Counted from the first letter of the stretch, positions 10,198-30,771 are shown. The stretch is DNA of 64,000 bases from Candidatus Dojkabacteria bacterium (GCA_035444565.1 DAOMOX010000002.1:8013-72012); one strand, 5' to 3'. Numbers and translations are program-made. Notes: a model not told the origin generated them from the letters alone.

Positions 10198-10671
10198 TTA
10201 TTTAGTTTTTAATTCTTTGATTGCTTGCTCGAAATCTTCAATGGTATTGAAATCTCGATAAACTGAAGCAAACAATAAGTATGCTATTGTGTCGAGCTTT
10301 TTTAATCTTGTTAATACCATCTGTCCGATTTCAGTACTTTTTACAATTGTTGTTTTACGATTGAGAAGTTTTAGTTCAATGTCATCAAGTAAGTCATCAA
10401 TTTGACTTTCTGTAAGATCGCGCTTCTTGACTGCCTTCATGATACCTTTTTTGAGTTTTTCTCGATCGAATTCTTCTACTTTCCCACTCCTTTTGTGAAC
10501 ATTTAAGCTGATTGTTTCCACACGCTCATATGTAGTAAAACGTTTCTTACAGTTCAAGCACTCTCTACGTCTCCTAGTTACACCGGATTCGTTATTGTCT
10601 CTCTTGTCGACAACTTTACTTACTACGCGATGACAGTACGGACAAATCATAATAAAATCATTATTGCGCAA
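10198..10671 (-). CDS. nrdR: Transcriptional repressor NrdR (the true start is probably the internal Met at nt 10650, MICPYCH...)
   Basis: Zinc ribbon CPYCH...CLNCKKRFTTYE and an ATP-cone (KRDLTESQIDDLLDDIE...LDTIAYLLFASVYRDF), collinear with bacterial NrdR. It lies directly upstream of nrdJ. Confidence 0.9.
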   Translation of the reverse strand: MRNNDFIMICPYCHRVVSKVVDKRDNNESGVTRRRRECLNCKKRFTTYERVETISLNVHKRSGKVEEFDREKLKKGIMKAVKKRDLTESQIDDLLDDIELKLLNRKTTIVKSTEIGQMVLTRLKKLDTIAYLLFASVYRDFNTIEDFEQAIKELKTK

Positions 10672-14721: not shown

Positions 14722-14874
14722 TAGTAAATAAATAAAATATAAAATATAAATAGAGATTATTCTCTATAATCATTATATCATTCAATTCAAAACTCATGTT
14801 GTAAAAAAACTTTTTTATATTTGTACTTATGATATTTCACAATTTAGGATATAATTAACATTATAGCAGTTAAT

Positions 14875-14938
14875 GCCGAGGTGGTGAAATGGCAGACCCC
14901 GCCAAACCTTCGGTTAAGGGGCAGGCACGCTCATTAAA
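14875..14938 (+). pseudogene. tRNA-Leu-like degenerate fragment A (5-prime acceptor strand plus a D-arm-like segment plus a GC hairpin; no anticodon or T arm)
   Basis: GCCGAGGTGGTGAAATGGCAGACCCCGCC... parallels the first 23 nt of the intact tRNA-Leu downstream, then diverges into a CCCC...GGGG hairpin. It is followed by an AT-rich spacer of about 30 nt. Confidence 0.4.
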
Positions 14939-14967
14939 TACAAAATACATTATAATTAGTAAATCAT

Positions 14968-15031
14968 GCCGAGGTGGCGAAATGGTAGACCCCGCCAAAC
15001 TTCGTTAGCGGGGCAAGCGCGCTCATTAAAA
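14968..15031 (+). pseudogene. tRNA-Leu-like degenerate fragment B (second copy of the roughly 93-bp fragment-plus-spacer unit)
   Basis: GCCGAGGTGGCGAAATGGTAGACCCCGCCAAACTTCGTTAGCGGGG..., same architecture as fragment A. The spacer tcattaaaatagaaaattcatctaaattagtaaaagat resembles the spacer preceding the intact tRNA. Confidence 0.4.
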
Positions 15032-15060
15032 TAGAAAATTCATCTAAATTAGTAAAAGAT

Positions 15061-15141
15061 GCCGGGATGGCGAAATGGTAGACGCGCTAGTCTTAGGAAC
15101 TAGTCCCTTCGGGGGTGGAGGTTCGAGTCCTCTTCCCGGCA
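15061..15141 (+). tRNA. tRNA-Leu (anticodon UAG), class II tRNA with a long variable arm
   Basis: Acceptor GCCGGGA/TCCCGGC with discriminator A. D-arm GCG-AAATGGTAGA-CGC. Anticodon stem CTAGT/ACTAG with loop CTTAGGA. Variable arm CCCTTCGGGGG. T-arm GGAGG-TTCGAGT-CCTCT. No encoded CCA. Confidence 0.85.
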
Positions 15142-15249
15142 TACTTAGTAAAACATAATTTTCTCCAAGTTTATTATTTTTAGGTTCTCCCTCTACGCCA
15201 AGGCTTCGAGGGATTAACCAGTTCTACGCCTCATACTTCGGCTAAATCT

Positions 15250-15273
15250 GGTTTAAGAGTCCTCTCCTCGGCA
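15250..15273 (+). pseudogene. Degenerate tRNA 3-prime-end fragment (T-loop plus 3-prime acceptor strand CCTCGGC-A) complementary to the GCCGAGG acceptor of fragments A and B
   Basis: GGTTTAAGAGTCCTCTCCTCGGCA versus the intact tRNA 3-prime end GGTTCGAGTCCTCTTCCCGGCA. The acceptor strand is the exact reverse complement of GCCGAGG. It lies 110 nt downstream of the intact tRNA, abutting the giant-gene operon. Confidence 0.35.
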
Positions 15274-15296: not shown

Positions 15297-18200
15297 CTAT
15301 TGGTAATACTCTAATAATAGTCTATATAATTTTATCGCTAACTCATAGTCATTATAGTCTAACAGGCCTTTTTCTTTAGCCAACTCGATTGTATCAGGTT
15401 CGACTACTCCTTCTTTACCTTGATATTTACCTTTTTTTCTATCATAACCGACATACGCAATTTTTTCTGAACCCGGCAATTTCATTAATGTTTTAGTCTC
15501 ATCTAATAGTGTTGTTAGATAAATTGGTGAATCGTTCTCCAAAGCTTTTGCGAGGAATAGTGCTATAACAGCCTGTTTTGTAGATTTATCAACCCCGTTT
15601 GATGCCTCATCTATAAACACCCATGTATCTGGATTCTCAGCCATTGCTTTGTAAATTCCTACTAATTTCCTTGCTTCCGTTTCGTATTGACTATAATTAT
15701 CACTCCCAATTGACCTGATTATCCTAGCGGCAATAGCTTTTGGTCTTTTCTTAAAATTCACATTTTCTCCTGGACAGTACCCAGATATTATAGTATGTGC
15801 AACCATAGCCGCTTCTGAAATTAGGGATGCTGACTTTCCTGCTTTTTGATTACCAATTTTTACCTGTGCAACTACATTTTCTCCTGAAAATTCTGGCGTT
15901 CCAACAGGGATATATTGATCACCTAATTCTTTTAATAAGTGAATATTGAACGAAGCACTATAACTGAGATGAGTATTTCCCGTGGAATCATAACTTGGTT
16001 TTGTAAATATCTTATTTCCCTTTAAACCGTTTTTAATTGTAAGCGCATAAAGAGCAGAAAGGTTTATACTATTTAGATGATCTATATTGCTAGAAATTCC
16101 TAGAATTGATTTTAGTTTATCTTTACCCAAATGTTCCTCTAAATCTAGAATGACAGGATTAAGATACTCTGAGAACACTTTTTCCGCTCTTTCTTTATCA
16201 TCACTTTCTTTTCTAGTTTTATCTTTGTTAAGCAATATTCTCAATACTTCAGATGAATCGGAAGTAAGTTTTTGGAGATCATCTCCACTTAAATGATTAT
16301 TTAAATTAAAGTTTAGCATCCTAGCTACATTAGGATATTTATCTTTAATTTTATAGTCATATCTTATGGCATCAGCCAACTTCATACTGAGAGAAACAAC
16401 ATTTTCTGGATTCACCAGTAATAAATCTTGTGTTTCAAGGCCAAAATCTTTCATTTGTTCCATAATCTCTTGTTCTCTTACTGAAATCCCAACAAAATCA
16501 TTACCCTCTGGTTTTGTCAAACTCAGTAAATATGAATACAACTCATACTTATCTATATAATCCATACTTCCAATACCCTGTAATGCGCGCTTTGCAAGTT
16601 TTACTCCATCGAGTCTTTCTGAAAAGTGTACAAGCCTATCTCTCAAAATATGCGAATCTTCTTGCAAAAAATCATCAATTCTTTTATGAATTTCTTCTTC
16701 GAAAAATTCGGGACCACTCGAAGATTGCTCTTTCAGGAATTCTGTAAATGCACTGGAAATCTCATTAGTATTAATTGATGAGCTATCTCGAAACATTGAA
16801 TCCATCATTATTGTGTATATATCTTTTAACTGTAGCTCATCAATTGTCTTCTCATCAAAGACTTCACTGGTAGGACTATACTCGACTTCCTGCAGTGGAG
16901 GGACAATTTCTTCGGTCCCAAACATGATTTGTTGTTTAAGTTCTTCAATCATTCTTGCAATATCTTCTGACACTCTACTACCTATTCTTTGATAAGTTTC
17001 AGGGCCAAAAGAGGAACTCATCCCCTCACGAGCTTCATGTGAGATTGGTATGATATTGACATGGTGCAATCCTGATTCTCCTAACAGATAGTCAAGTGCA
17101 CCTAATTCTTCAACATGATGCGAGGTCACAACGGTAGTTAATCCTGCTCTCTTTCTTTTCAGTAACTGAATATATTCAATCACTGAGGCTGCCAAATCAG
17201 TACCACCAGATAATAACTCGTCTGCGAAAAGAGTATCGGTATTTATTACTTCTACAAGTTCACTTATACTCTGATCTGCTAAGCTTTGGTTTGGATCTGG
17301 TACTTCGAAACCTACTCTATATATTCCATCCGTACTATTTCTTGTTGCGGAAAAAGGTCGGCTCACTTTAGCATTTGGAACCGATCTATTTCCTGGGAAA
17401 AGACTTTCGAACAATATCCTTAAAGCATAGGTTTTTCCCGAACCGGTAGGGCCACCTATTACAGTTGATGTTCCTTTCCCAAAGGCCATATTTAATAACC
17501 CACCTATTTGATAATTGGGAAGACAATTTCGTCTTGGAGTATTGGATAGTACACGACCTTCTAAGATTTCATATTCATCAGTACTTGGTTGAACATAAAC
17601 ACCAAGACTTTCTCTAAACCTTGGAATCCAATACATTCCTGCGAGCACTCCTACAAATTTATCTAGTCTTATATTATTGCTTGCAGAATCTAAGATGTTT
17701 TCTGGATTGTTAGTAGTACCCTTTAAGAAACCTAAAAGAGCACTTAACTCAGCACTTGCAGGATTTATGAATTCCTTAATAGTAACTCTTCCTGATTCTT
17801 GTTCAATACTTGAAATTTCCTCAAAGAGAATATCCAACTTTTCAAGAGCAGTAAGTGTTTGTTCATAACCTCCTTTTTCTTTGTATGTTGTGTAGTTATC
17901 GGCAGAGTAAAAACTTGGGATGAGCCTTTTAGCTCCAAAAACAGCATAATTCTCCAAAAGTTCTTTAGTTTCGGGGTCTGCTTTAGAAATAAAGTCTATT
18001 ATCACCTGAAAATCTTGATCGGTTAGATTAGCATAGTTTAAGAAATCACACAGATCTATTAATACCGATACTTCATATCTACCTTTAAATCCACTTTCTA
18101 AAGTGCTGCCCTCTACTCTATTTTCGGTGATGAAAGATTGAATTTCCCCTAAATATGAACTAGCAGAGTAAGTATTTTCTCCATCAACTGGGAATTTTCT

Positions 18201-19541
18201 AGTTTTAAAAATATCAACTGGGTAACTATCTTCTTCCGTGATTTCAACCAATGACTTTGACCAATAAGAAAACTCAAGTTTTGCCGCTTCTTTTAATTTT
18301 AACAATTTCTCATTTTCTTCCAGTTTCATTTCTACTACATCATGTACTACGACATCTGGAGCATCAGTCAAATTGTCTATACTTCTTATAATTGTATTAT
18401 TCACAGAGAATTTTGATTCGGCAGCCTTAATTAATCTCTCCATCTCCGCAGTACTATAAATATCTTTTTCTGAGAATACTTCAGCATCTGATGCGAAATC
18501 ACCTACAGCCCTAATGAAATTATTTTTATCACGAACTACATCTCTGTTCTTTAAATGTCTTCCTTCATCATAAGATAAATCACTATATAAAATACTTGTA
18601 GTATCGATATATCCTGAATCCAATGCTTCTTTAAAAAGTTTTAACACAGCTAAATGATTTCCTGGTTTAAGTGGAAAGCTGGTTGTATTTCCAGTATCTA
18701 ACCATGATTCTACAATTTTCGATTTACTTACTTCATCAAGTGAACTTACACTTTCAATCCATTTATCAGAAAAGTATGCAGCTGCATCGGGATTTAATTT
18801 TTTTAAAGTTGACTGAAAACCGAAATTTTCTGTAATTTCAAGTTCTGTAACAACAGGTATGAAGGCAAAAAACCTACTTTCAGTGAGATTGTCTATTTGT
18901 GAAATTCTATTTGCAACATCAAAATAAAAATCTATATATTTTTCAGAATTCCCAAAGTGCTTAAATCCACTCTGCATAAGCTCTACGACAAAATTAGCAT
19001 AACTATCTTTATCATCTTGTGATTCGAGTTTGTTTTTTACCCCATCATAGCCTTCTATTAGTTGAGTTATCAGAGTTTGAAATTTTGTTTCATCTTCTGG
19101 AATAAATTCAACAGCAGAAATTACCCTTTTCGTATCAGAGATAAATGAATTCAAACCATATGATCCACCTATGTTGTTAAAATAGGAAGCAGATTGATTC
19201 CCTCTTTCCTTTCTCCAAAAAGGATTTACAAATGATGGAAGATCTTCGTTACTTAAATCTAGTATACTAAGCAATCCATGCTCCCCCAAAATCGTATTTG
19301 CTAAACTTCTCTTTTCATCCACACCAAGGGCCTCAATTGCACCAATCCCTTTATGCCCAATATTAGCAATAATTTGGAGTCTCTCAGGAGCCGAGTATTT
19401 TTTTGGATTTGTTAATAACTCGAGTTGTTCACCAATTGTCCTCCGCGGAGTAACATTATTTATGTAGGTTACTCTATCAGGAGCTACAGGAGGTCCTTGG
19501 AGTATGGTTTGCATCCCTGTAAGATTTGATTCTGTACCCAT
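15297..19541 (-). CDS. Giant (1414 aa) cytoplasmic protein with two tandem MutS-domain-V-like ABC ATPase modules (module 1 canonical, module 2 lacking the catalytic His) and no mismatch-binding domain
   Basis: Module 1 (aa about 690-830, nt about 17470-17050): GGPTGSGKTYALRILF, LFADELLSGGTDLAASVIEYI, TTVVTSHHVEEL, collinear with the MutS domain V in this window. Module 2 (aa about 1225-1350, nt about 15870-15490): GNQKAGKSASLISEAAMVAHTIISGYCPGEN, RIIRSIGSDNY...WVFIDEASNGVDKSTKQAVIALFLAKALE, TTLLDET. Confidence 0.7.
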   Translation of the reverse strand: MGTESNLTGMQTILQGPPVAPDRVTYINNVTPRRTIGEQLELLTNPKKYSAPERLQIIANIGHKGIGAIEALGVDEKRSLANTILGEHGLLSILDLSNEDLPSFVNPFWRKERGNQSASYFNNIGGSYGLNSFISDTKRVISAVEFIPEDETKFQTLITQLIEGYDGVKNKLESQDDKDSYANFVVELMQSGFKHFGNSEKYIDFYFDVANRISQIDNLTESRFFAFIPVVTELEITENFGFQSTLKKLNPDAAAYFSDKWIESVSSLDEVSKSKIVESWLDTGNTTSFPLKPGNHLAVLKLFKEALDSGYIDTTSILYSDLSYDEGRHLKNRDVVRDKNNFIRAVGDFASDAEVFSEKDIYSTAEMERLIKAAESKFSVNNTIIRSIDNLTDAPDVVVHDVVEMKLEENEKLLKLKEAAKLEFSYWSKSLVEITEEDSYPVDIFKTRKFPVDGENTYSASSYLGEIQSFITENRVEGSTLESGFKGRYEVSVLIDLCDFLNYANLTDQDFQVIIDFISKADPETKELLENYAVFGAKRLIPSFYSADNYTTYKEKGGYEQTLTALEKLDILFEEISSIEQESGRVTIKEFINPASAELSALLGFLKGTTNNPENILDSASNNIRLDKFVGVLAGMYWIPRFRESLGVYVQPSTDEYEILEGRVLSNTPRRNCLPNYQIGGLLNMAFGKGTSTVIGGPTGSGKTYALRILFESLFPGNRSVPNAKVSRPFSATRNSTDGIYRVGFEVPDPNQSLADQSISELVEVINTDTLFADELLSGGTDLAASVIEYIQLLKRKRAGLTTVVTSHHVEELGALDYLLGESGLHHVNIIPISHEAREGMSSSFGPETYQRIGSRVSEDIARMIEELKQQIMFGTEEIVPPLQEVEYSPTSEVFDEKTIDELQLKDIYTIMMDSMFRDSSSINTNEISSAFTEFLKEQSSSGPEFFEEEIHKRIDDFLQEDSHILRDRLVHFSERLDGVKLAKRALQGIGSMDYIDKYELYSYLLSLTKPEGNDFVGISVREQEIMEQMKDFGLETQDLLLVNPENVVSLSMKLADAIRYDYKIKDKYPNVARMLNFNLNNHLSGDDLQKLTSDSSEVLRILLNKDKTRKESDDKERAEKVFSEYLNPVILDLEEHLGKDKLKSILGISSNIDHLNSINLSALYALTIKNGLKGNKIFTKPSYDSTGNTHLSYSASFNIHLLKELGDQYIPVGTPEFSGENVVAQVKIGNQKAGKSASLISEAAMVAHTIISGYCPGENVNFKKRPKAIAARIIRSIGSDNYSQYETEARKLVGIYKAMAENPDTWVFIDEASNGVDKSTKQAVIALFLAKALENDSPIYLTTLLDETKTLMKLPGSEKIAYVGYDRKKGKYQGKEGVVEPDTIELAKEKGLLDYNDYELAIKLYRLLLEYYQ

Positions 19542-19590
19542 AGTTTATGAAACCAAAAATTAATTAGTTATTGCAAACCACAAAGTTAAC

Positions 19591-22500
19591 TTATTTTATA
19601 GAAGCGTACATTATTTCCAATATGTAATACTGTGCAGTAGTCTCTGTGATTTGTTTTGGTAAGTCCAATTTACCAAGTCTTGATCTTAATTTTATAGTTA
19701 TTTTATTTAAAAGTTGCTGATATTCATTATTAGTAAGTTGTGCAGTTATAATCTTTGCTGCATTTGAAATTGCTGTAATTGTATTCTTTCTGACAGTATC
19801 TGCATTCGGGTCTTGATTATTCATAATCTCATTAATAATTAAGTCTAGTTCTCGTTTTAAACCAGTCCTATCTGTTTGTAATTCATTTTTAATTACATTT
19901 CTCACTAAATCTAATATCTCTTCGTTTGGCAATGTTATTTCATTAGTTGTTAAATATGCTCGTAAATTTTCGGTATTGGAATCAGTATCAATTACAGTTT
20001 CGGTTCCCATGATGGGAAGAATAGGATTGTCGACGGGTAAATCTTCTACATCCTCAGCTTCTCTTCCCACAAGTTCTTTATCTTGAGGAGATGAGGCCAG
20101 TTCTATTAACCTTTTCTCCGCGTCTGTTCTATTCTCTTCAACTAAACTAACCTTCACCACCCAGCCTTCAATCCCTCCCAAATTTTCTTCCTCTACTCGT
20201 AATTGGTATTTCCCTTCGGCTACTCCCTCATTAATTCTATCTGCAATTTTTCTTGTGGTATCACCGTCTTCTGATACATCGATGAAATCATCGACAACCT
20301 CATTAGTAAGAGTTACATATCCCATCTTCACTAGATCAGGCATGCGGTTTGCCAGATCACCAGTATCATCTATTCTTTCAATTTTATTAGATTTGAAAAC
20401 AAATTTAGAATCATCGGTTTCATCAACTGTATATACCAACCGTCCTCTTATCAAATCCAGTACTATTTCTTCGTCAGAAATTTCTGAACCTACAACAGCA
20501 TTAATCTCTTCTCTTTTGTTTTTGATAATTTCGAGTAAATCAGTTTTTTCTACAAGCCATTTCTCTTCTGATCTCTCATCTGTTACAGGAGAAAAACGGA
20601 CTTCTCTTCGACCTGAAACTATCTCATCTTTAGCATTCTCATCAAGTTGACCTCCAACCAGTTCTACTAATTCACCCAGTCTTCTCATATTGTAGTGTAA
20701 TAGTGCTCTTTTAGTAGCTTCTGCATTTTGGAATGAAAGCTCTACAGAATCTCCACTTTCACTTGTTGATTCGGTCTCAGTAAAGGGTTCTTCCTTCATT
20801 ATAGTTTCGGCTTGTTCTACGGGAATCACCAATAATTCATTAAATTTCTCTGTTAATCTCTCCTTTCCGGCAACCTTCTCTCTATCCACTTTTAATTTGC
20901 CTTTTATTTGCATAACATCTTCCGTACTAGTATCAGCGTCTTTTATAATCAATCCGGCATATTCTAATAGTTCTAAGACCTCAGCTTCGGGAAGGTTTTC
21001 ATAATCTATATTCCCTGATTCGGAAGCATCATCACTTAACCACAAAGCAGTTCTTCTATTTATTTCATTCAATACTATTCTGGTAATATTATCTGAGCCT
21101 CTAGTATCTTTTTCAATATTTCTCAATGTGTAGAGTACATTGCTTGGAAGTCTTCTGCTGAATTCATTGGAAGTAAGTCCCATATCGGGATCGTTATATT
21201 TCCCGCGTATTTCAATATAGGTATCATACACAGTAGCTCCAGGAGTTATGTCTAGGATTGTGTATTCTGCGCCTTCACTTTCAACATCAACTGCTGCTTC
21301 CGATATTAAAGGTTCTGCGACAAGGTCATTTCTATCACTTTGGTCAACCTCGGCATCAACAACTACAAATTCCCAAGCACTAATCCCATCAGGCATTTCA
21401 GGGATAGTTCTAGTCTGTAATGTAACTTCGTTATTTATTATTTTTCTAACTAAGACTTCTACAAATTTTTCTCTGAAATCATCAGGATTACTATCGGGAT
21501 TTCTTTCTGATAGATCAGATATTACTGATTCGGGTATATCCGAGGATAAAACATCATTATTTATCACTGTTTGAAGCAAACCTTGCACGTCATTTTCATT
21601 TAGTTCATCGCTAAATAAATTTTTATAACCTGCCAAAAGAGAATTTACGTATTCATCTCTATTATCAAAAGTAGGATTTCCATCAATAGCATTACTATAT
21701 ATGTAACTTCTTGAAGCTAGTAATGCTTCTTGTTCTGGTTCTAAACTAATAATTTTACTAATATCTTTATCCCGTATCCGTATATCTCCATTTAAAATCC
21801 AGGCATCATAGCCACTATATTGACTGTAATAATATGCAACTTTGCTGTTTTCTCCTATTATAGGTTGATTTAATGCTAATTCTAACTGAGAACGTATATC
21901 ATCTTTTTCCTTATATTCCCTAAATTTATCTGAAACAATAAATGTTGAATCACCAAGAACAACATCTGTTAGATCTAATAATGGCTCTTCTTCTGGAGTA
22001 GAACTAAAATTCTCAACAAGGACGTACTCATATATTCCTAGTCCTTCTAAACCAGGTATTTCTCTGGTGGTGAAAGTGTAATAATCACCCACTCTATCTA
22101 TTTCTTCAATTATAGTCTGACCAACAATTCTTCGTAACTCGTTAAGGTCTGTGATTTTATTAATACCTTTCTTCAATTTTAAAGTTTCAATAATTCCTTG
22201 TGGTAGTTCCGGTGATAATAGTCTTCCTAATATTTCTGGAATTTCATTTGTATTTTTAACGTCATTCTCTATTCTTCTAAGAATGTCCTCTCTGTCAACA
22301 ACTTCGTTCTGAGATATGTCTTGTGTATCAAATGATATTGAATACCTAATGTTTCTGTCGTAACTACTCTCTCCACTTCCTAATAAGTTTCTCGAAAAAA
22401 GAGTTCTTATCTGACCACGATTAAGATCTAGTGATGAATTATCTTTATTTGATAAAACTACCTGTTCGGAAGGATAAAATATGTGCACGTACTGAGGTGT

Positions 22501-25500
22501 TTCAAGATATATTCTTTCATCAGATAATATAAGTGGTGACCCGAGTGCCCATGATACACGTTCGAACAAATCACTATTTATAATTGCGTTCTTAATCTCA
22601 TTGTGTTGATCTTCATTAATACCCAAACCTTCTCTAAATTCTTCATCTCTAATTTTCTCTTGTCTCCGTCTATAAAGTGCGAAACCCCCAAATGCTGCTG
22701 TTAGTATTCCGAGAGTGGCGACACTTCCTATGATAAGTGGTTTTTTCATATCTTCTGGTATACCAGCATCCTCCAACATTGCATCGGTATCGACACCTTC
22801 TCCTGGAACAGGTTCCAATGGAGCTGTCGTTGGTTCTGGGGTTACAAATGGTTCGATTTCGGAAGTTGCGGTTTCTTTAACCTCTTCTGTGGGTTCTGGT
22901 GTAGCTGTAAATGTTGTCTCAGCAGTAGGTGACTGCTCTGTGGGAATAGATGTTGCGGTAACTGAAGCAGTCTCCTCTGGGGTTGTTACTGTTGTTGCAG
23001 TTAATTCTTCTTGGGATTGTTTTGCCTCAGCAGTCGGAGCCTGTGTTGTGTTTGTAGCTGTAGTCTGAGCAGTTGCTGAAGGAGTGACAGATGCAGTGGT
23101 TACTTCAACACGTGATTCAGATCTTGGCAATTGGTTTTGACCTTCTACATTATCTTTAATAAAATCTTTTACTGATTGTGGCAAATCTAGAACTGAGTAA
23201 GTCCCTTTTGATATTTGATTACCGTTACTTGTCCCAGCTACACTATATACTACTACTTCATCACCATAATTACTTCCGTCTGGCTTCATCAGCTTTACAA
23301 CTACTTCAGGCGAAGGACTATTATCTCTATTTACTATAATAAAACTCTCTTCAGTAACTACAAAATCATCACCTTCTTTGTAAATTACCGAACCATACTG
23401 GTCTGAAATCCTAGGATCCTCTAATGATTCGAAATCAAAAGCTGCTGTTGCAGTTGGTGCTGAAATTGTTGCTGTAGCTGTTTGAGTTAAGGTTGGTTCT
23501 GCAGTTGAAATTGGTGTTGCTTCTGGTTCAGCAGTGCTAGTTGCAGTAGGTTCGGGGGTTGATGTTACGGGAGGTGTTCCCTGAACATCTGAGTCTGATA
23601 GATTATTAAAAGTGTTGATGGTCGCTTGATCTACTTGGATATCTAATTTAGGATTTTCGTCAGTATCTTTTATACCCAATAAGTTAAATATATTTATATT
23701 TTTTTCATTTAAAATTTCTTGAAGTCTATTCAACATTCTGGGGTTTGTATATATTGCTACTACTTCTTCATAGGATTGTACTGACGTACTTGTGATAGGA
23801 TTCTCATCACCTTCATCTGTAGTATATAATATTCTCTCACCAAGTAAACTTTGTATGGTGCTATGTAATGTCATTAGAGCCACTGCAGGATCATCAGTCT
23901 CAACTACAGTGCCCTCAAAATTAAGAACTCGAATCAGATAGCCACTATCTTCTAATCCATCCCATCTTCCTCCATTTTCTCGTTCAATTACATCAAGTAA
24001 TGCATGTTGGGTAAGTTCTGAAAACGGTGCTAATCTTCCTGTTCGGAACTGCTCAGGTATATCAGAGTCATATCTATCTTCAATTCCAAGTTCTTTAAGA
24101 GCTTCGTATAAATGCTCAAACTTATAATCACCTTCTGGGAATCTTTCTATCGCAGAAAGTATAAGCCCGTTGACTAATAATTGAGAAATTTCCTCTCTAA
24201 TTATATCCATTCCCTCACCTGCGATTGTTTGGCCATCATTTACATCCTCATTAAAGTTCTGGAAGATACTGATTGTGTGAAATTTAAAACCATCCTCTGT
24301 GTAATTCGGGGGAGTTGTGGCAACTGAGCTTCTTTGTTCAATTATTTCTCGGTACTCATCGCCGATTGAGAAATTAATATTATTTGGAACAAAATCCTGA
24401 TTTCCGTTTAGATGAATAGAGTAGCCCATTTTACTTGCTATTTGTTCAACAAGATCATAGCTCACATTAAATTTTGTTTGCTGACCATTAATAGTTAAGT
24501 TTATTTCAATAGGATTTTCCTTATCTAATCTCTGGAATTCTTTAGGTTCTGGAGGAAATTCCTCCATTAATTTTTGTGCTTCTGTGGGGGTTGCACTCGC
24601 ATCTACTGTCGGAGCAAGGGTAGGTTCTTCTTCAACCGGCTCGGGAGTTGATACATTTCTAGTCGCTTCAGCTACTCGATCAAATATTCCTTTTATCAAT
24701 TCAATGTAATCCCCTTCTGGAACATCTGGGAATGCAGTGATAAATTCTTCTCTTGTTAAACTCTCGAAATTTTTATCATCTACTCTCTGATAAGAATTGT
24801 TTTCATACTTTTCAATGACTACATATGCCTCACTACCTTCACTAGGTCTTACAGTTAGTCGATATTCGGGATCTATATCATTGTCTGTATTTAAATAGAC
24901 ATAAATTCCATTATCTCCCTTTCCACTTACTTCTTTCATCATCCATTGACCTTTTTGATCACTGCCATTACCCAATGAATCTCCACCTTCGAAATTATCG
25001 AGTATATTTTTTCTATATTCCTCTTCATCCACGAAGTTGATCTCGGCTTCTTGAGCTTCGATTGTTCCTTCCGGAACAGGAGTAGGTCCTTCGTCACCAG
25101 TCTCTGGAGTGGCTGTTATAGTTCCTTCCTCTACCGCAGGTTCACTCGTAGCTGTAGGTGTGGTACTAGGTGGTGGAGACGTTGGAGTTGGTTCCGTACT
25201 GTTTGTTGTATCTCCCGTAGGTTCAGGTGTCGGATTTGTTACGGTCTCGGCATTATCACCTGTCACTTGTAGACTATCTGGAAGGTACTCCGCAATCTTT
25301 TGATTAGCCAATTCAACCATATCTCCTACAGAACCTGGCCTTTCTTCCTCATTGATTCTAAATTCAAGAATTCTTGTATCGGGAGGGATATTGTCTCCAG
25401 AAATTATTTCATAGTCAGAATTTACAGCTGTACTAATAAACAGTTGACCTTCAACATCTATTAATGCAACACCTTGATTCTTGATTTGTGTAGCGACATC

Positions 25501-28500
25501 ATCGCCAATTTCATTTAATGTGACGTATTTATCATTTGATGTTAAGAATTCATCCAAATCGATTTTTCCTTCTTCTATCAGTTTATCTGCTAAAGCCTTT
25601 AATCCCTCAATATCTTCAGGAATATCACCCGCATCGATTCCGTAGAAATGAGGTCCCCCGTGAAGGCTTCCTGTTATTCTCCCCGAGGAATCAGCATTAA
25701 TTTCGAGCGTGTAGTATGTTCTCTGTTCCTCTACACCTTCATTATTTATTTCGTTAAATGTTTGAGACCTCAATGCAACACCATGTTCAATTAGTGACTC
25801 TTCTGCCAATTTGTTTGATTGAGCAACTTCTTCAGATGTTGAATTTTCAGATCCACCAAAAATCGGAATGTTTGTCGTAACTACATCAGACCCTACTGTG
25901 AATTCTGTGTCAGGTATCTCCACAGTTGGAGAAACGATATCTTCAGCAGAATCGCTTTCATCTTCTACTCCATCTTCAACTTGTTCGTCGACAGTTTCCT
26001 CTGTAGTAACTCCTTCTCCGGTTGATTCATCTTGAGCAATTGGTCCAACTGCCCTCAATCTCATGTCTATACCAATATCTTCTGTCAATTCCACTAAAGA
26101 AAGCTCACTTACAATACTTTGAGGTCCAGCCATAACTGTGAATTCCGTTTGTTCTCCTATTACTGATCTGGTTTGATTGGAGCTTGTAGTTACTATTACG
26201 AATTCTCGTTCCTCTCCATCAACCTGAAGAGTGATAATAGGTAGTTCCCCTTCGTCTAATTCATTTAAGTAAGTTTGTATTTCTGATTGTAATGTTTGAG
26301 GCAAATCTGACAGACTTGTTGGTGCTGTTGTCTGAGTACCTGAAGTTCCTAACGTTGTAGAGTTGTCAACAACAGTAGACATTGAGACTGGTGAAATGTT
26401 TGTTCCAGAAATCGGCTCAAGTTCAGGTACGGTATCAGCGTCTATTGTGCGACCAAGAGTTATATCCACGGATGCTTGAGCATCTTTATAAATTTCATCG
26501 ATATGTTCTTGAGTCATCTTCCCATCTGAGAGATCTTCAGTTTGTTCAGCACTAAGCTCGACTAGGAAAATACGATTATGCGTACCAAGATTTGAATCAC
26601 CCGGAATAGTAACCAATACAAATTTGTTTTCTACAAAAGTAGCGTTTTCTCCCTCCTGTTCTACAACATTTAATATTCTAATACCTGAACCTGCTCCAGA
26701 ATCATTCAAAATTTCACCATCAACAACTCCGTTTAAAGATATAGAATATCCGCTATTTAAAACACCGGGTATAGAATCTTCTACTAAATTACCACCCTCA
26801 TTAATTATATATGGAGTTAAATCTTTGATATTACTTTCGGAGATGACGAGTTCAGAGAGCATACTATGTGGTTTCAAGACTAGTACATCTTGAGGATTTG
26901 GGTACCCAGAATTGTTATAGAATCTCTCGACCTGAGTTTCATCGCGGCTAATGGAGGCTACATCAAAATCTTCATTAGGTGAATTATGAGTATATACAAT
27001 ATTACCCAACATTGTTGTAAATGTCTGTGGCTCTCCAATTATGAGCTGAACACTTTGACCCGTACTACTTGGTAGGGTTAGTAACCCATCATTAATAAGC
27101 TCTTTTAGCTGATCCCCTGTTAGAGCTGATTGATAATGATTTAAGACATCATTCCATGTACTGAATGTAATTGAATTATTTGAGCTTAAGATATTATCTG
27201 TTGCATCTGCGACTGCATTGATTTGTTCATTAGTTAGACCTATCTCTTGTAACTGCTCAATACCCTCAGGAGATGGCATTTGATTGAGGATTTCATCTAC
27301 ATCTAAAGTTACTGGTGTATTTGAGGGAAACCTTGATAATTCAATTTCTTGTGTAAGTAAACCATCTTGAACAACCTTTTGTCCATTTTCTTCGGTGATA
27401 TCTGATTCATTTATCAGTCTCCACTGGTTATTCTCAAGAACAACCAATCCATATACAATACTACCCTCAGCTGTTGTATTATCCCCATCGATATCTACTT
27501 TTAAACTTAGCGTTCCATAAGGCAAACCATCTGTTTCATTGAAATATCCTTCAGATGGAATTTCTCCTGTAATAACTCTTCCTGTTTCAGGTAAGTTATC
27601 AAAAGGGAACGCTGTTTCACCATTTGATAAAACGACACTAGTTCCAATTTCATCTACATTTTCAATCTGAGTTTTAAAGTTATCACTATTAACTATATTA
27701 TGTAGTTCTGTTTTTAATTCATCAACGGGTCTTCCAATCCATTCATCACCTTCTAAAAATTGCGATGCATAAATAATATTGTCAGGAGCATTTCTCAAAT
27801 CTCCATCATATATAGCATTCTCTCCGTCGACATCAGGAACGACAGCATAGACAACCTGTACGACAAATTCATCCTGCGATGTTCGCATTGTTCTTATGAA
27901 CAAATCATCATCAGATGGCAATCTTTCTAAGTCTATATCGCTTACAAATAAATCTATCACTTTTGCGTGTTCAGAAGTACCTAAAATGACAGGTGAATGA
28001 TCTACATGATTATTTAATTCGTCAGGAACTGGGGCAAATATATTATCAACAACTTGATAGAATAGGATATCTTTTTCCAGATTTGCTCCCGCGATAGGGG
28101 TGTCATCAATTTTCCCACCAACTAATAATAAATCGTTTTCTTGATATTGGCTATGATTGACGTCACTAGGAATATAATTTGTTCGTACATTTAGTTCTCC
28201 TGTATCTGTTAAGCTATATGATCGCGCTGCAATAGTAATACTCTCTTCTTCTGGATGATTATTTAACCAATCCTTTACATCTCCATAAGTCCATCCAGCA
28301 TATTTGGATACTTCGCTCAGTCTATGTTCTAACTCTTCTTCTGGATTTTCTGTGTCAAGTACATTTATATCTCCAACAATTTGTTCAACTTGTTTATATA
28401 CAATTTCGGGCTCCACATCATGATCCACATCAAATCCAAAAGCAAGGCTTCCAGCATGTGTAGTTGCCGATTCAGGTGATTCCAGTTTATAAGTACCCGT

Positions 28501-30771
28501 AGCAGGGTCAAAGTGCAAAGCTCCGTAATATGTCTCAGAACCATCAGGATTCTCAACGACAGCCACTCCTCCATTTAACGGTTCGTTTAGCTCTGCTACT
28601 ACACCATCTTCACCCCAGATTTCGTGACCTTCTCTTACTACCTCAGCGACTGCCTCCCCAATACCATTTCCAGGTGTAACTTCTCCGATGCCGACGGATT
28701 GACTGTCACTGCCAGCTGGTTCATAAAGAACTTGATCAAGTATGGCAGATGTGGGTTGTTCGAAGACAGCTGCCATCTGAACTGCTATAGATGCATCTAT
28801 TCCAAATTCTTCGTGAAGTAATTTTTGTATATTACCTTCATGTTTATCAATCATCTCTGGTGTGATGCCATCTAAGAGATTGATTTGATCATCTGTAAGG
28901 GTTCTTATGGTATCCACATTTACTATTTGTCGTTCGTGTAATTCAGTTCGCTCCTCAGAGTCTGCACCCTGTATATTATGCAAAGCTTTTTGTATATCAT
29001 CAATTTTATTGCTTAACTCAACCTGTTCCAATTCGCTGATTGGCTTTTGCCAATGTTCGACGGATGAATCCACATGCTCAGCGGGTGGAGCTTCTTCTAT
29101 CACCCTACTACCTGTAGTTTCTGGTGTTTGATTATCAATATTGTTTTCTAGAGAAGTCTCCGTTAATACTGCTTCATCAGTTTGTTTAGAATCTTCTCGA
29201 TATACCATTTGCTCCACACCACCATTGTCAGCTCTATGGAATTCACCTTTCTCAACAGCATCAGCCATTGCTTGATACCTTTCGTAATCATTATGGCTAT
29301 CGACCTTATCTTGTGCAATTCTTGCTAAACTCTCCAAAGCGTCTTCGCGAACTTGAGATGGTGGTGTTTGAAGATGGTCAGCCTGGTCGACAACATCATT
29401 AGTCTCGTTTGAATCCATCCCATAACCGGAAGTTGCTGCTAGATATTCATCGAAAAAGTCATCTGAATCATTATCTCTTAAATCGTATAATTCTCCTGAT
29501 ACTACGGCTCCTGCTGGCATAAATATACTTGCCACAACTCCAGTAAGCCTGAGGGTATTTAGTGATAATTGAATTACCTTTCTTTGCTTTGGGGTCAATC
29601 TATCTAATAATCCTGCATCTGGCTCTTTATTACTAAGTAGAATTTCTGCAATTCCTTCATCCTCAAAACCTCGCACTTCTAGTATTGACGCCTGTTCAGG
29701 ATTGAGTTTCCCTTGCGAAATAAGCTCTTGTTCTTGTTGGTATTTATTCTGTAGTAATCTCCTAGCTAAAAATTCCAATTCAGTCAATGTGAGGTTTGTT
29801 CCATTATCTGCGTTGATTTGATCCAAAGCAGCTTTAGCAATTTTCTTTGTACCAGAATCAAATCCCATATTAGCGAATCTATATGCCATCTCAACTGACA
29901 TGTTCACACCTTGATCATTGGTCCAAATTACTGTACTTTCTGCTGAATGAGTAGGTAAATATGTCTTACTCTGAAGATTTTTATAACCTTTTGCCACTGT
30001 TTCGATAGAAGTAATTGAAGGTGCTGTTATATCAGTAATGTCTTCTCTTTTCTTAAGTGCGATCGTCGTAATTTCGTCAATACTCGTATTTGGGTTTAAC
30101 ACGTGTTCTGTAGTAATTAATTTGGATGCTAATTCTGATTCGTGAAGTAGTGCTACAAGCTCTCTCGGTAGGACTTTATTTAATTTGCCGTCCGTTGTGA
30201 GATTAACATATTTACTTAATACATCATTTAAACTTGCAAGGGATGCTCCATAATTTTCACCTAAAACATCAATTGACTCGCCTAAATACCTCTGAATAGT
30301 CTCAAAAACTATAAGCTGCCCATCTGCACTTAGATTTCCTTCTTTACTAAATAACTCCTTGTCACTGATTTCTAGTTCATTTAGTAGTCTATCTAGATAA
30401 TAAGCAAATGCTGCATCTTCAGTTTCAGATGTTGTATCTAATTCTGGAAGAATTTCATATATTTTATCTGCTCTCTGCACAATAGACAGAGAAGATGTCA
30501 CCTCCTTCCTTTTGGTTTTACCACCTCCTAATATTTTGAGACCTCCGATTTTAACGACTTCTGTTCTGGTATATCTCTCTCCTAACAAAACGTTATTCCG
30601 GAATTCCACGTCTGGCTTATAATCACCACTATCTAACAATAGAGGATTTTCCGTTCTGTTACCTAACAAATCTTGTGCTGCCATTGTTGCAAATACTTCT
30701 GTCATAACTCGCACATCAGGCGGGATATTTGTTGGTTTAGTGACTTCTACCACTGATCTCTCAATTCCCAT
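19591..30771 (-). CDS. Giant (3726 aa) bitopic membrane protein: N-terminal region of about 2600 aa with Thr/Pro-rich low-complexity stalks, one TM helix with an RRRQEK stop-transfer, and an acidic C-terminal domain of about 1100 aa
   Basis: Single hydrophobic segment PLIIGSVATLGILTAAFGGFALYRRRQEK (aa about 2600), preceded by a PT/TA-rich stalk (…TPEPTTAPLEPVPGEG…). Additional PT tracts sit at aa about 1390 and about 2240. No recognisable catalytic motifs and no N-terminal signal peptide. The intact 11.2-kb ORF is co-directional and contiguous with the MutS-like ATPase gene. Confidence 0.6.
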   Translation of the reverse strand: MGIERSVVEVTKPTNIPPDVRVMTEVFATMAAQDLLGNRTENPLLLDSGDYKPDVEFRNNVLLGERYTRTEVVKIGGLKILGGGKTKRKEVTSSLSIVQRADKIYEILPELDTTSETEDAAFAYYLDRLLNELEISDKELFSKEGNLSADGQLIVFETIQRYLGESIDVLGENYGASLASLNDVLSKYVNLTTDGKLNKVLPRELVALLHESELASKLITTEHVLNPNTSIDEITTIALKKREDITDITAPSITSIETVAKGYKNLQSKTYLPTHSAESTVIWTNDQGVNMSVEMAYRFANMGFDSGTKKIAKAALDQINADNGTNLTLTELEFLARRLLQNKYQQEQELISQGKLNPEQASILEVRGFEDEGIAEILLSNKEPDAGLLDRLTPKQRKVIQLSLNTLRLTGVVASIFMPAGAVVSGELYDLRDNDSDDFFDEYLAATSGYGMDSNETNDVVDQADHLQTPPSQVREDALESLARIAQDKVDSHNDYERYQAMADAVEKGEFHRADNGGVEQMVYREDSKQTDEAVLTETSLENNIDNQTPETTGSRVIEEAPPAEHVDSSVEHWQKPISELEQVELSNKIDDIQKALHNIQGADSEERTELHERQIVNVDTIRTLTDDQINLLDGITPEMIDKHEGNIQKLLHEEFGIDASIAVQMAAVFEQPTSAILDQVLYEPAGSDSQSVGIGEVTPGNGIGEAVAEVVREGHEIWGEDGVVAELNEPLNGGVAVVENPDGSETYYGALHFDPATGTYKLESPESATTHAGSLAFGFDVDHDVEPEIVYKQVEQIVGDINVLDTENPEEELEHRLSEVSKYAGWTYGDVKDWLNNHPEEESITIAARSYSLTDTGELNVRTNYIPSDVNHSQYQENDLLLVGGKIDDTPIAGANLEKDILFYQVVDNIFAPVPDELNNHVDHSPVILGTSEHAKVIDLFVSDIDLERLPSDDDLFIRTMRTSQDEFVVQVVYAVVPDVDGENAIYDGDLRNAPDNIIYASQFLEGDEWIGRPVDELKTELHNIVNSDNFKTQIENVDEIGTSVVLSNGETAFPFDNLPETGRVITGEIPSEGYFNETDGLPYGTLSLKVDIDGDNTTAEGSIVYGLVVLENNQWRLINESDITEENGQKVVQDGLLTQEIELSRFPSNTPVTLDVDEILNQMPSPEGIEQLQEIGLTNEQINAVADATDNILSSNNSITFSTWNDVLNHYQSALTGDQLKELINDGLLTLPSSTGQSVQLIIGEPQTFTTMLGNIVYTHNSPNEDFDVASISRDETQVERFYNNSGYPNPQDVLVLKPHSMLSELVISESNIKDLTPYIINEGGNLVEDSIPGVLNSGYSISLNGVVDGEILNDSGAGSGIRILNVVEQEGENATFVENKFVLVTIPGDSNLGTHNRIFLVELSAEQTEDLSDGKMTQEHIDEIYKDAQASVDITLGRTIDADTVPELEPISGTNISPVSMSTVVDNSTTLGTSGTQTTAPTSLSDLPQTLQSEIQTYLNELDEGELPIITLQVDGEEREFVIVTTSSNQTRSVIGEQTEFTVMAGPQSIVSELSLVELTEDIGIDMRLRAVGPIAQDESTGEGVTTEETVDEQVEDGVEDESDSAEDIVSPTVEIPDTEFTVGSDVVTTNIPIFGGSENSTSEEVAQSNKLAEESLIEHGVALRSQTFNEINNEGVEEQRTYYTLEINADSSGRITGSLHGGPHFYGIDAGDIPEDIEGLKALADKLIEEGKIDLDEFLTSNDKYVTLNEIGDDVATQIKNQGVALIDVEGQLFISTAVNSDYEIISGDNIPPDTRILEFRINEEERPGSVGDMVELANQKIAEYLPDSLQVTGDNAETVTNPTPEPTGDTTNSTEPTPTSPPPSTTPTATSEPAVEEGTITATPETGDEGPTPVPEGTIEAQEAEINFVDEEEYRKNILDNFEGGDSLGNGSDQKGQWMMKEVSGKGDNGIYVYLNTDNDIDPEYRLTVRPSEGSEAYVVIEKYENNSYQRVDDKNFESLTREEFITAFPDVPEGDYIELIKGIFDRVAEATRNVSTPEPVEEEPTLAPTVDASATPTEAQKLMEEFPPEPKEFQRLDKENPIEINLTINGQQTKFNVSYDLVEQIASKMGYSIHLNGNQDFVPNNINFSIGDEYREIIEQRSSVATTPPNYTEDGFKFHTISIFQNFNEDVNDGQTIAGEGMDIIREEISQLLVNGLILSAIERFPEGDYKFEHLYEALKELGIEDRYDSDIPEQFRTGRLAPFSELTQHALLDVIERENGGRWDGLEDSGYLIRVLNFEGTVVETDDPAVALMTLHSTIQSLLGERILYTTDEGDENPITSTSVQSYEEVVAIYTNPRMLNRLQEILNEKNINIFNLLGIKDTDENPKLDIQVDQATINTFNNLSDSDVQGTPPVTSTPEPTATSTAEPEATPISTAEPTLTQTATATISAPTATAAFDFESLEDPRISDQYGSVIYKEGDDFVVTEESFIIVNRDNSPSPEVVVKLMKPDGSNYGDEVVVYSVAGTSNGNQISKGTYSVLDLPQSVKDFIKDNVEGQNQLPRSESRVEVTTASVTPSATAQTTATNTTQAPTAEAKQSQEELTATTVTTPEETASVTATSIPTEQSPTAETTFTATPEPTEEVKETATSEIEPFVTPEPTTAPLEPVPGEGVDTDAMLEDAGIPEDMKKPLIIGSVATLGILTAAFGGFALYRRRQEKIRDEEFREGLGINEDQHNEIKNAIINSDLFERVSWALGSPLILSDERIYLETPQYVHIFYPSEQVVLSNKDNSSLDLNRGQIRTLFSRNLLGSGESSYDRNIRYSISFDTQDISQNEVVDREDILRRIENDVKNTNEIPEILGRLLSPELPQGIIETLKLKKGINKITDLNELRRIVGQTIIEEIDRVGDYYTFTTREIPGLEGLGIYEYVLVENFSSTPEEEPLLDLTDVVLGDSTFIVSDKFREYKEKDDIRSQLELALNQPIIGENSKVAYYYSQYSGYDAWILNGDIRIRDKDISKIISLEPEQEALLASRSYIYSNAIDGNPTFDNRDEYVNSLLAGYKNLFSDELNENDVQGLLQTVINNDVLSSDIPESVISDLSERNPDSNPDDFREKFVEVLVRKIINNEVTLQTRTIPEMPDGISAWEFVVVDAEVDQSDRNDLVAEPLISEAAVDVESEGAEYTILDITPGATVYDTYIEIRGKYNDPDMGLTSNEFSRRLPSNVLYTLRNIEKDTRGSDNITRIVLNEINRRTALWLSDDASESGNIDYENLPEAEVLELLEYAGLIIKDADTSTEDVMQIKGKLKVDREKVAGKERLTEKFNELLVIPVEQAETIMKEEPFTETESTSESGDSVELSFQNAEATKRALLHYNMRRLGELVELVGGQLDENAKDEIVSGRREVRFSPVTDERSEEKWLVEKTDLLEIIKNKREEINAVVGSEISDEEIVLDLIRGRLVYTVDETDDSKFVFKSNKIERIDDTGDLANRMPDLVKMGYVTLTNEVVDDFIDVSEDGDTTRKIADRINEGVAEGKYQLRVEEENLGGIEGWVVKVSLVEENRTDAEKRLIELASSPQDKELVGREAEDVEDLPVDNPILPIMGTETVIDTDSNTENLRAYLTTNEITLPNEEILDLVRNVIKNELQTDRTGLKRELDLIINEIMNNQDPNADTVRKNTITAISNAAKIITAQLTNNEYQQLLNKITIKLRSRLGKLDLPKQITETTAQYYILEIMYASIK

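What the first reader, a model, noticed from the sequence alone, without database searches (positions are those of the whole stretch)
15297..19541. Giant 1414-aa protein with two tandem MutS-domain-V-like ATPase modules and no mismatch-binding, connector or clamp domains
Module 1 has the canonical Walker A (GPTGSGKT), D-E Walker B (LFADE), the signature GT and the catalytic His region (TSHHVEEL), aligning residue-by-residue with the bona fide MutS encoded 2 kb away. Module 2 retains Walker A (GKSA) and FIDEASNG but replaces the THxHEL His (TTLLDET). That is an asymmetric, heterodimer-like pair built into one chain, as in MSH2/MSH6-type asymmetry. It is the second covalent pseudo-dimer in this window, alongside the double NrdJ. 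The about 680-aa N-terminal region and the about 370-aa inter-module region have no motifs I recognise. Its co-transcription with a 3726-aa membrane protein suggests an ATP-driven machine of unknown function rather than DNA repair.
Basis: partly seen in the sequence, partly recalled or inferred. Interest (0 to 1): 0.75.

Follow-up and report, generated by a model that had tools for sequence, protein, structure and literature searches.

The report
Single-chain double MutS-type ATPase
A 1414-residue protein of a tiny uncultured (Dojkabacteria) bacterium carries two copies of the ATP-burning engine of the DNA-repair protein MutS in one chain, lacks the DNA-mismatch-reading parts, and is always encoded right after very large unknown proteins, so it looks like a rare repurposed MutS motor rather than a repair enzyme.

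The parts
15297..19541 (-). Whole ORF, 1414 aa, tandem MutS-type ATPase (NCBI name: 'ATP-binding protein', Candidatus Dojkabacteria)
17607..19541 (-). N-terminal region aa 1-645. Predicted all-alpha and possibly solenoid-like. No recognisable family.
   Evidence: No Pfam hit. A family profile against the PDB finds nothing. The AF2 model is all helices, with pLDDT 58.5 overall and about 75 for aa 35-390. Foldseek gives only generic helical-repeat matches with E >= 5e-3. No similarity to MutS domains I-IV.
16902..17606 (-). Module 1, aa 646-880: MutS domain-V-type ATPase with a complete catalytic set
   Evidence: hhalign to MutS2 domain V 98.7%, E 3.9e-16, and to MutS1 domain V 96.7%, E 3.6e-10. 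In the profile search of the PDB the long alignments are to MutS2 (9kce) and Taq MutS. This region is 92% identical to the orthologue P0002.
17430..17453 (-). Walker A of module 1, GPTGSGKT (K703 invariant)
17271..17285 (-). Signature-like Ser motif of module 1, SLADQ (S753 and L754 invariant). Position equivalent to MutS S-T-F.
17217..17234 (-). Walker B of module 1, TLFADE (D774 and E775 invariant)
17103..17126 (-). His motif of module 1, TSHHVEEL (H808 invariant in all 7 sequences)
16032..16901 (-). Inter-module helical region, aa 881-1170. Predicted all-alpha with no beta-sheet. Part of it probably superposes on the MutS core/lever helices.
15300..16031 (-). Module 2, aa 1171-1414: MutS domain-V-type ATPase with the C-terminal helix-turn-helix-like segment. 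The His motif is degenerate.
   Evidence: The family profile against the PDB gives MSH3 1.2e-13, MutS2 7e-13 and Taq MutS 4e-10, with ABC transporters only at >= 2.4e-4. Pfam MutS_V hits module 2 of the relatives: P0004 32.4 bits, above the gathering score of 30.2. hhalign gives 98.0%, E 2e-13 to MutS2 V and 96.4%, E 1.1e-9 to MutS1 V.
15831..15854 (-). Walker A of module 2, GNQKAGKS (K1236 invariant)
15678..15692 (-). Signature-like Ser motif of module 2, SQYET (S1284 invariant; S-T-F-M-T-E in relative P0004, as in MutS)
15606..15623 (-). Walker B of module 2, WVFIDE (D1311 and E1312 invariant)
15495..15515 (-). Degenerate His motif of module 2, TTLLDET. There is no His here, whereas relatives P0005, P0006 and P0008 have T-N-H-E.
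19542..19590 (-). 49-nt spacer between the giant gene and the ATPase gene. No terminator-like site. The spacer has the same length in the orthologous locus L001.
19591..30771 (-). Upstream partner gene: 3726-aa ORFan with two predicted TM segments (about aa 415 and 2680) and a large ectodomain with Pro/Thr-rich linkers. Its cytoplasmic N- and C-terminal parts are conserved with the L001 homologue.
15060..15142 (+). tRNA-Leu on the opposite strand. It marks the downstream end of the two-gene unit.

Best explanation
The gene encodes a cytoplasmic, single-chain member of the MutS family of ABC-class ATPases, built as two unequal 'helical arm + domain V' units: a 645-aa helical region followed by module 1, then a 290-aa helical region followed by module 2. 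SHOWN: both modules are MutS domain V homologues, and each includes the C-terminal helix-turn-helix-like segment that follows domain V in MutS. The mismatch-binding, connector, Smr and KOW domains are absent. Module 1 has a complete catalytic set, and module 2 lacks the catalytic His in this clade. The gene is always immediately downstream of large ORFan gene(s). INFERRED: the two modules pair within one chain as MutS subunits do in a dimer, forming two composite ATP sites. One site would be consensus, with Walker A, Walker B and His808 of module 1 plus the signature Ser1284 of module 2. The other would be degenerate, with Walker A and Walker B of module 2 plus Ser753 of module 1, and would bind ATP but hydrolyse it poorly. 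ATP binding and hydrolysis at the consensus site would open and close the two helical arms, as in MutS and MutS2. Here the arms would grip something other than a mismatch. The most likely target is the cytoplasmic part of the co-encoded giant or large protein, or a nucleic-acid or ribosome complex associated with it. It is therefore an ATP-driven clamp or switch dedicated to its operon partner, not a mismatch-repair enzyme.
Against: The window protein on its own gives no significant MutS hit, so everything rests on a seven-sequence family. Intramolecular pairing was not measured, because no coordinates were available. The arms have no detectable similarity to MutS domains III/IV at sequence level, and the N-terminal model is of low confidence. 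The upstream partners of distant relatives are not detectably homologous to the giant protein and have no TM segments, so a common partner-directed function is not demonstrated. No direct evidence of co-transcription or interaction exists.
Confidence: 0.55

Rival explanations
1. The protein has the same fold and family, but the modules do not pair within the chain. Two chains would associate so that like or unlike modules pair between chains, giving a four-module assembly. The tandem arrangement would then be a scaffold rather than a pseudo-heterodimer.
For: MutS and MutS2 work as homodimers or tetramers (PMC10897456). The 290-aa linker is long enough for either topology. Each module is more similar to MutS2 domain V than to the other module. 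No coordinates were available to check contacts.
Confidence: 0.2
2. It is a nucleic-acid-directed MutS paralogue working independently of the giant protein. It could be a DNA recombination or repair clamp of the MutS2/MutS3-5 type, or a ribosome-rescue factor. The gene adjacency would then be only local synteny.
For: All characterised MutS-family members act on DNA or ribosomes (PMC2190696, PMC10897456). The window gene lies near mutS, nrdR and RNR genes. Relatives lie near UDG, RNase J, FtsK and RuvX or near an RNR gene.
Against: There is no mismatch-binding domain, connector, Smr nuclease or KOW domain. The predicted linker has no clamp beta-sheet. The neighbourhood beyond the upstream ORFans is not conserved between loci. 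The only constant neighbour is the tightly coupled large upstream gene.
Confidence: 0.2
3. It is the ATPase sensor or motor of a conflict (anti-phage or inter-bacterial) system whose large, fast-evolving upstream proteins are the effectors or receptors.
For: The distribution is patchy and very rare. The partner proteins evolve fast and vary in size. A Y1 transposase and duplicated ORFans flank the Beckwithbacteria copy. tRNA-Leu fragments and a variable ORFan lie next to the Dojkabacteria copy. There is a weak PADLOC mad8 hit, E 1.6e-6.
Against: The PADLOC hit covers only the P-loop (44 of 314 profile positions). No nuclease, protease or toxin domain is found in any partner. Base composition is not atypical. 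Synteny is conserved between two Dojkabacteria at 75% identity. No relative was found in viral contigs.
Confidence: 0.1
4. It is an artefact: a mis-assembled or mis-called chimeric ORF, or chance P-loop motifs in an unrelated protein.
For: The protein has no direct Pfam MutS_V hit, and pairwise BLAST is non-significant.
Against: The identical protein lies on a 310-kb contig and on a second contig. The orthologue occurs in two independent assemblies. The architecture is collinear in six clusters. Profile and structure statistics are far beyond chance.
Confidence: 0.01

Closest known systems
MutS2 (e.g. B. subtilis or T. maritima MutS2/RqcU; PDB 9kce, 7qv3, 7vuf)
   Different: MutS2 has one ATPase domain per chain and works as a homodimer. 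It carries a clamp, a coiled-coil, and KOW and Smr domains. None of these is detectable here. This protein has two ATPase domains per chain and a 645-aa unrelated N-terminal region. Its divergence is far greater than that between MutS1 and MutS2 (control E 8e-32).
MutS3, MutS4 and MutS5 subfamilies (Lin, Nei and Ma 2007, PMC2190696), especially the MutS4A/MutS4B gene pair
   Same: These are uncharacterised MutS paralogues that keep the ATPase (MutSac) domain, with or without the core domain, and lack the mismatch-binding domain. MutS4A and MutS4B are adjacent genes whose stop and start codons overlap. That is a two-gene version of an unlike pair of MutS ATPases.
   Different: Here the two ATPase units are fused in one polypeptide with long extra helical regions. 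The taxonomic range differs (CPR Microgenomates/Dojkabacteria).
MSH2-MSH6, MSH2-MSH3 and bacterial MutS1
   Same: They share the domain V fold, motif order and spacing, and the HTH-like segment after domain V. In the eukaryotic heterodimers the two ATP sites are functionally asymmetric.
   Different: Those proteins have domains I-IV and both subunits keep the catalytic His. Here domains I and II are absent, and one module has lost the His.
Single-chain or heterodimeric ABC ATPases with one degenerate site (ABCE1, ABCF and UvrA as two-NBD chains; TM287/288-type heterodimers)
   Different: They belong to a different ABC branch, with an LSGGQ signature, a helical subdomain and roughly 120 aa between Walker A and Walker B (my own knowledge). 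This protein has MutS-type spacing of 71-75 aa and scores twice as high against MutS proteins.

Membership tests
MutS family (defined by the domain V ATPase, Pfam PF00488) | The protein itself reaches significance against the curated MutS_V model | tested here: not met
   There is no MutS_V hit for the whole protein or for the isolated modules, even at E <= 10. BLASTP to the window MutS is non-significant.
MutS family (defined by the domain V ATPase, Pfam PF00488) | Homology of the domain to MutS domain V, established through family profiles | tested here: met
   Module 2 of the relatives hits MutS_V: P0004 at 32.4 bits, above the gathering score of 30.2, and the others at 1e-4 to 6e-4. The profile search of the PDB gives MSH3 1.2e-13, MutS2 7e-13 and MutS 4e-10. 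hhalign gives 96-99% probability for both modules.
MutS family (defined by the domain V ATPase, Pfam PF00488) | Domain V fold, distinguishable from other ABC-class ATPases | tested here: met
MutS family (defined by the domain V ATPase, Pfam PF00488) | Motif set and spacing: GxxxxGK[ST], then about 73 aa, then hhhhDE, then about 33 aa, then T-H-x-x-E; a Ser-x-aromatic signature-like motif between Walker A and Walker B | tested here: met
   Module 1 is complete. In module 2 every motif is present except the His.
MutS family (defined by the domain V ATPase, Pfam PF00488) | ATPase domains pair into two composite nucleotide sites | not testable with these tools
MutS1 (mismatch-repair MutS/MSH) | Domain I (mismatch binding, PF01624) and domain II (connector, PF05188) | tested here: not met
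   No Pfam hit. hhalign of the N-terminal region and the linker against MutS I-II gives probability < 1%. The N-terminal model is all-alpha and has no MutS match.
MutS1 (mismatch-repair MutS/MSH) | Domain III (core/levers, PF05192) and domain IV (clamp, PF05190) | tested here: inconclusive
MutS2 | C-terminal KOW and Smr domains after the ATPase domain | tested here: not met
   The protein ends 60 aa after the module 2 core, and there is no Smr, KOW or MSSS hit. Reference MutS2 proteins carry PF20297, PF00488 and PF01713.
MutS3/MutS4/MutS5 (ATPase-domain-only MutS paralogues, PMC2190696) | MutSac domain without MutS-I/II, clustering with those subfamilies in a tree | not tested
   The domain content is compatible, but no MutS3-5 reference sequences could be retrieved. 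The last homologue search returned nothing.
ABC transporter nucleotide-binding domains (PF00005) | LSGGQ signature, a helical subdomain, and roughly 120 aa between Walker A and Walker B | tested here: not met
SMC/Rad50/RecF/RecN-type ABC ATPases | Walker A and Walker B halves separated by a long coiled coil or insertion | tested here: not met

The most novel reading that the evidence does not exclude
A MutS-fold engine has been fused into a covalent asymmetric pseudo-heterodimer and recruited as the dedicated cytoplasmic motor or quality-control factor of giant surface proteins in CPR bacteria. For example, it could grip the conserved cytoplasmic tail of the 3726-aa protein, or the ribosome-nascent-chain complex making it, and drive its insertion, assembly, remodelling or rescue. 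That would be a protein- or membrane-directed function never described for the MutS family.
Probability: 0.2. Interest if true: 0.8.

Novelty: new variant of a known kind. Interest (0 to 1): 0.55.

Why it matters
Characterised MutS-family ATPases work as dimers of separate chains, and asymmetry between their two ATP sites is central to how they signal. A natural single-chain version with one consensus and one degenerate site would be a ready-made system for dissecting that asymmetry. It would also add to MutS2 as a case where the MutS engine was repurposed away from mismatch repair. The tight coupling to giant and large ORFan proteins in CPR bacteria gives a first handle, an ATPase that can be assayed, on a class of huge proteins with no known function. 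At present the family is annotated only as 'ATP-binding protein' or 'hypothetical protein'.

Tried and rejected
Pfam and NCBIfam on the whole protein and on the isolated modules gave only sub-threshold P-loop and ABC hits.

BLASTP of the protein against the window MutS, and of module 1 against module 2, gave nothing significant.

phmmer and two-sequence profiles against the PDB gave only weak ABC and MutS2 hints.

PADLOC gave a mad8 hit restricted to the P-loop, which I rejected as evidence for a defence role.

The word-indexed homologue searches found only the 75% orthologue. With profile A7 the search found MutS2 and MutS as the next-best proteins but missed the true relatives. With profile A5 it found nothing.

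Among the exhaustive-search hits, P0007 is a repeat protein and spurious, so it was dropped.

The scan of genome contigs gave no confirmed locus. The scan of metagenome contigs returned only the Beckwithbacteria locus again. The scan of viral contigs gave nothing.

I tested whether the N-terminal region and the linker are duplicates of each other, or are MutS I-IV or MutS2 N-terminal domains, by hhalign. All probabilities were below 1%.

I looked for homology among the upstream partner proteins of different loci by BLASTP, phmmer, jackhmmer and Pfam. Only the two Dojkabacteria giants match each other, and L003 gives a weak 25% hit.

The N-terminal AF2 model searched with Foldseek gave no significant match.

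I tried to read the model coordinates to measure contacts between the modules, but they are not available in the sandbox.

Rfam on the downstream gap found only tRNA-Leu.

Literature searches found no description of a tandem MutS or of this family.
Full report
**1. What is there**

The window is a low-GC (32-39%) bacterial chromosome segment. It carries housekeeping genes: mutS, nrdR, class II RNR genes, pyruvate:ferredoxin oxidoreductase, miaA, mur and PBP genes, mraW and aminoacyl-tRNA synthetases. The ORF 15297-19541 on the minus strand encodes 1414 aa with no internal stop.

The identical protein is in NCBI as 'ATP-binding protein [Candidatus Dojkabacteria bacterium]' (HRN86593.1, HRP51208.1), on two contigs, one of 310 kb. 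A 75%-identical orthologue (P0002) occurs in two independent ENA assemblies. The ORF is therefore real and not an assembly chimera.

**2. Is it MutS-like?**

Taken alone, the protein does not reach significance.
- Pfam and NCBIfam give only sub-threshold P-loop and ABC hits, for the whole chain and for the excised modules.
- BLASTP to the MutS encoded 1.9 kb away, and between the two modules, is non-significant.
- phmmer against PDB sequences gives E >= 0.3.

The only direct support is geometric. Walker A Lys to Walker B Asp is 71 aa in module 1 and 75 aa in module 2, against 73 aa in the window's MutS. Asp to the His motif is 32, 32 and 33 aa.

An exhaustive HMMER scan of 1.84 billion cluster representatives with aa 215-1414 found seven proteins. 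They are the protein itself, P0003 (39% identity, full length), four remote relatives of 1253-1743 aa (P0004, P0005, P0006, P0008), and one spurious repeat protein.

The six true hits plus P0002 align collinearly: a variable N-terminal region, module 1, a helical linker, then module 2.

Pfam MutS_V hits module 2 of all four remote relatives. P0004 scores 32.4 bits, above the gathering score of 30.2 (E 1.2e-7). The others score E 3.5e-5 to 6e-4.

Family profiles settle the question.
- The module 2 profile hits only MutS-family chains at the top of the PDB: MSH3 1.2e-13, MutS2 7e-13, Taq MutS 4e-10, and then MSH2, E. coli MutS and MSH6. ABC transporters start at 2.4e-4.
- The module 1 profile collects many short P-loop hits to ABC proteins. 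Its only domain-length alignments are to MutS2 (1.6e-8) and Taq MutS (4.5e-7).
- hhalign gives module 1 against MutS2-V 98.7% (3.9e-16) and against MutS1-V 96.7% (3.6e-10). It gives module 2 against MutS2-V 98.0% (2e-13) and against MutS1-V 96.4% (1.1e-9). Module 1 against module 2 is 95.7% (1e-8).
- The control, MutS1-V against MutS2-V, gives 8e-32. This family is therefore much more divergent than the known subfamilies are from each other.
- The alignments run through the helix-turn-helix-like segment that follows domain V in MutS.

**3. Structure**

The AF2 model of aa 610-1414 was built from a seven-sequence alignment. It has mean pLDDT 71.8 and pTM 0.67, with 80-90 in both modules.

The top 49 Foldseek hits against the PDB are all MutS, MSH2, MSH3 or MutS2 (E 5e-10 to 8e-8).

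The aligned lengths of 298-454 residues exceed one domain V of about 230 aa. Part of the helical region in front of a module therefore superposes on the MutS core/lever helices.

The linker is predicted all-helical with no beta-sheet, so a MutS-type clamp is unlikely. Linker confidence is modest (46-68 over much of it).

At sequence level, neither the linker nor the N-terminal region resembles MutS domains I-IV or the MutS2 N-terminus, and they do not resemble each other.

The N-terminal 609 aa are predicted all-alpha, with pLDDT 58.5 overall and about 75 for aa 35-390. Foldseek gives no significant match, only generic helical-repeat resemblances with E >= 5e-3. A profile search of the PDB gives nothing.

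**4. Asymmetry**

Across the seven sequences, module 1 keeps Walker A Lys703, the signature-like Ser753-Leu754, Walker B Asp774-Glu775 and His808. All are invariant.

Module 2 keeps Lys1236, Ser1284 and Asp1311-Glu1312. It has T-N-H-E only in P0005, P0006 and P0008. P0004 has S-T-I-Q-E, and the Dojkabacteria-type clade has T-T-L-L-D-E or T-T-L-S-D-E.

The degenerate His motif is thus a lineage-specific loss, not a family trait.

Both modules are the most conserved parts of the protein. They are 92% and 88% identical to P0002, against 65% for the N-terminal region and 74% for the linker.

**5. Context**

In the window, the gene follows the 3726-aa gene (19591-30771) after 49 nt on the same strand. 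There is no terminator-like site in the gap. A tRNA-Leu on the opposite strand lies downstream.

The giant protein has no Pfam hit. It has two predicted TM segments and a long ectodomain with Pro/Thr-rich linkers.

The orthologous locus has the same arrangement and the same 49-nt spacer. The two giant proteins are homologous but far more divergent than the ATPases. They are conserved mainly in the cytoplasmic N-part, the segment after TM2, and the last 134 aa (65% identity).

Every other family member also lies immediately downstream of large ORFan gene(s), often with a 4-nt overlap:
- P0003: an upstream gene of more than 648 aa.
- P0004: 1003 aa plus 1185 aa.
- P0005 (Candidatus Beckwithbacteria): 1165 aa plus 871 aa.
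- P0006: more than 790 aa, then 494 aa and 293 aa.
- P0008: more than 383 aa.

These distant partners have no TM segments, no Pfam domains and no detectable similarity to the giant protein or to each other. The constant feature is 'large fast-evolving upstream ORFan(s)', not specifically a membrane giant.

Proximity to mutS is not conserved in the other loci.

**6. Interpretation**

Shown: this is a deep-branching, very rare MutS-family protein with two domain V ATPases in one chain. It has no mismatch-binding, connector, Smr or KOW domain. It has one complete and one His-less catalytic set, and it is tightly linked to large ORFan genes.

Inferred from the known behaviour of MutS and ABC ATPases (my own knowledge of the family, plus PMC10897456 for MutS2): the two modules pair within the chain into one consensus and one degenerate composite ATP site. 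ATP-driven closure is passed to two unequal helical arms, which grip a target other than a mismatch. Given the gene coupling, the most economical target is the cytoplasmic part of the operon partner, or a complex containing it.

I could not verify the intramolecular pairing because model coordinates are not exposed. The indirect hints are:
- the pTM of 0.67;
- the retained trans-acting serines and HTH-like segments;

**7. Comparison with known families, and novelty**

The closest characterised relative is MutS2, which also lacks domains I and II and acts on ribosomes (PMC10897456).

The closest conceptual relatives are the uncharacterised ATPase-only subfamilies MutS3-5. MutS4A and MutS4B are adjacent genes with overlapping stop and start codons (PMC2190696), a two-gene analogue of the fusion seen here.

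I found no description of a single-chain tandem MutS, or of this family, in the literature library. Public annotation is 'ATP-binding protein' or 'hypothetical protein'.

I file it as a new variant of a known kind: a covalent, asymmetric MutS-type pseudo-heterodimer with unknown arms and an unknown target. Interest is moderate. The architecture is surprising for MutS specialists and gives a handle on CPR giant proteins. Against that, the function is unknown, the family is tiny, and the key mechanistic claim is untested.

Noticed in passing
window 14864-15273: There are three tandem units of about 93 nt. The first two (14864-14938, 14957-15030) contain only the 5' half of tRNA-Leu, and the third is the intact tRNA-Leu (15060-15142, plus strand). 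A 17-nt copy of the tRNA 3' end lies at 15257-15273, just past the stop codon of the ATPase gene. In the orthologous locus L001 an extra 657-aa ORFan sits between the ATPase gene and the tRNA-Leu. This looks like a variable spot, possibly a former integration site, next to a tRNA.
   Followed up: partly
window 2733-7037 (-), 8402-10180 (-), 10198-10671 (-): The 1434-aa protein contains two complete class II ribonucleotide reductase units (two Ribonuc_red_lgN plus lgC stretches) and a TSCPD domain. A third, separate RNR gene (592 aa) and nrdR lie next to it.
   Followed up: partly
window 19591-30771 (-): This is a 3726-aa ORFan with two predicted TM segments and Pro/Thr-rich linkers. Compared with its homologue in L001 (3194 aa), the region between the TM segments differs by about 1400 aa. 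The cytoplasmic N-part, the juxtamembrane segment and the last 134 aa (65% identity) are conserved, and the L001 protein has internal repeats of the cytoplasmic segments.
   Followed up: partly
window 46587-48383 (-): This is a 598-aa class II aminoacyl-tRNA synthetase (tRNA-synt_2 with an OB anticodon-binding domain) fused at its C-terminus to a YbaK/ProX-type tRNA_edit domain, an unusual combination.
   Followed up: no
L006 7382-9997 and 15927-18464 (Candidatus Beckwithbacteria RBG_13_42_9): The 871-aa ORFan upstream and the 845-aa ORFan downstream of the tandem-MutS gene are paralogues (36% identity over 170 aa, with an internal repeat). A Y1 transposase gene lies between the ATPase gene and the downstream copy.
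   Followed up: no
window 13516-14721 (-): This is a 401-aa secreted or anchored Cys-rich protein with a Pro/Thr-rich linker. Only its signal or anchor peptide is conserved with the syntenic gene in L001 (56% over 34 aa), and the rest has diverged completely.
   Followed up: no
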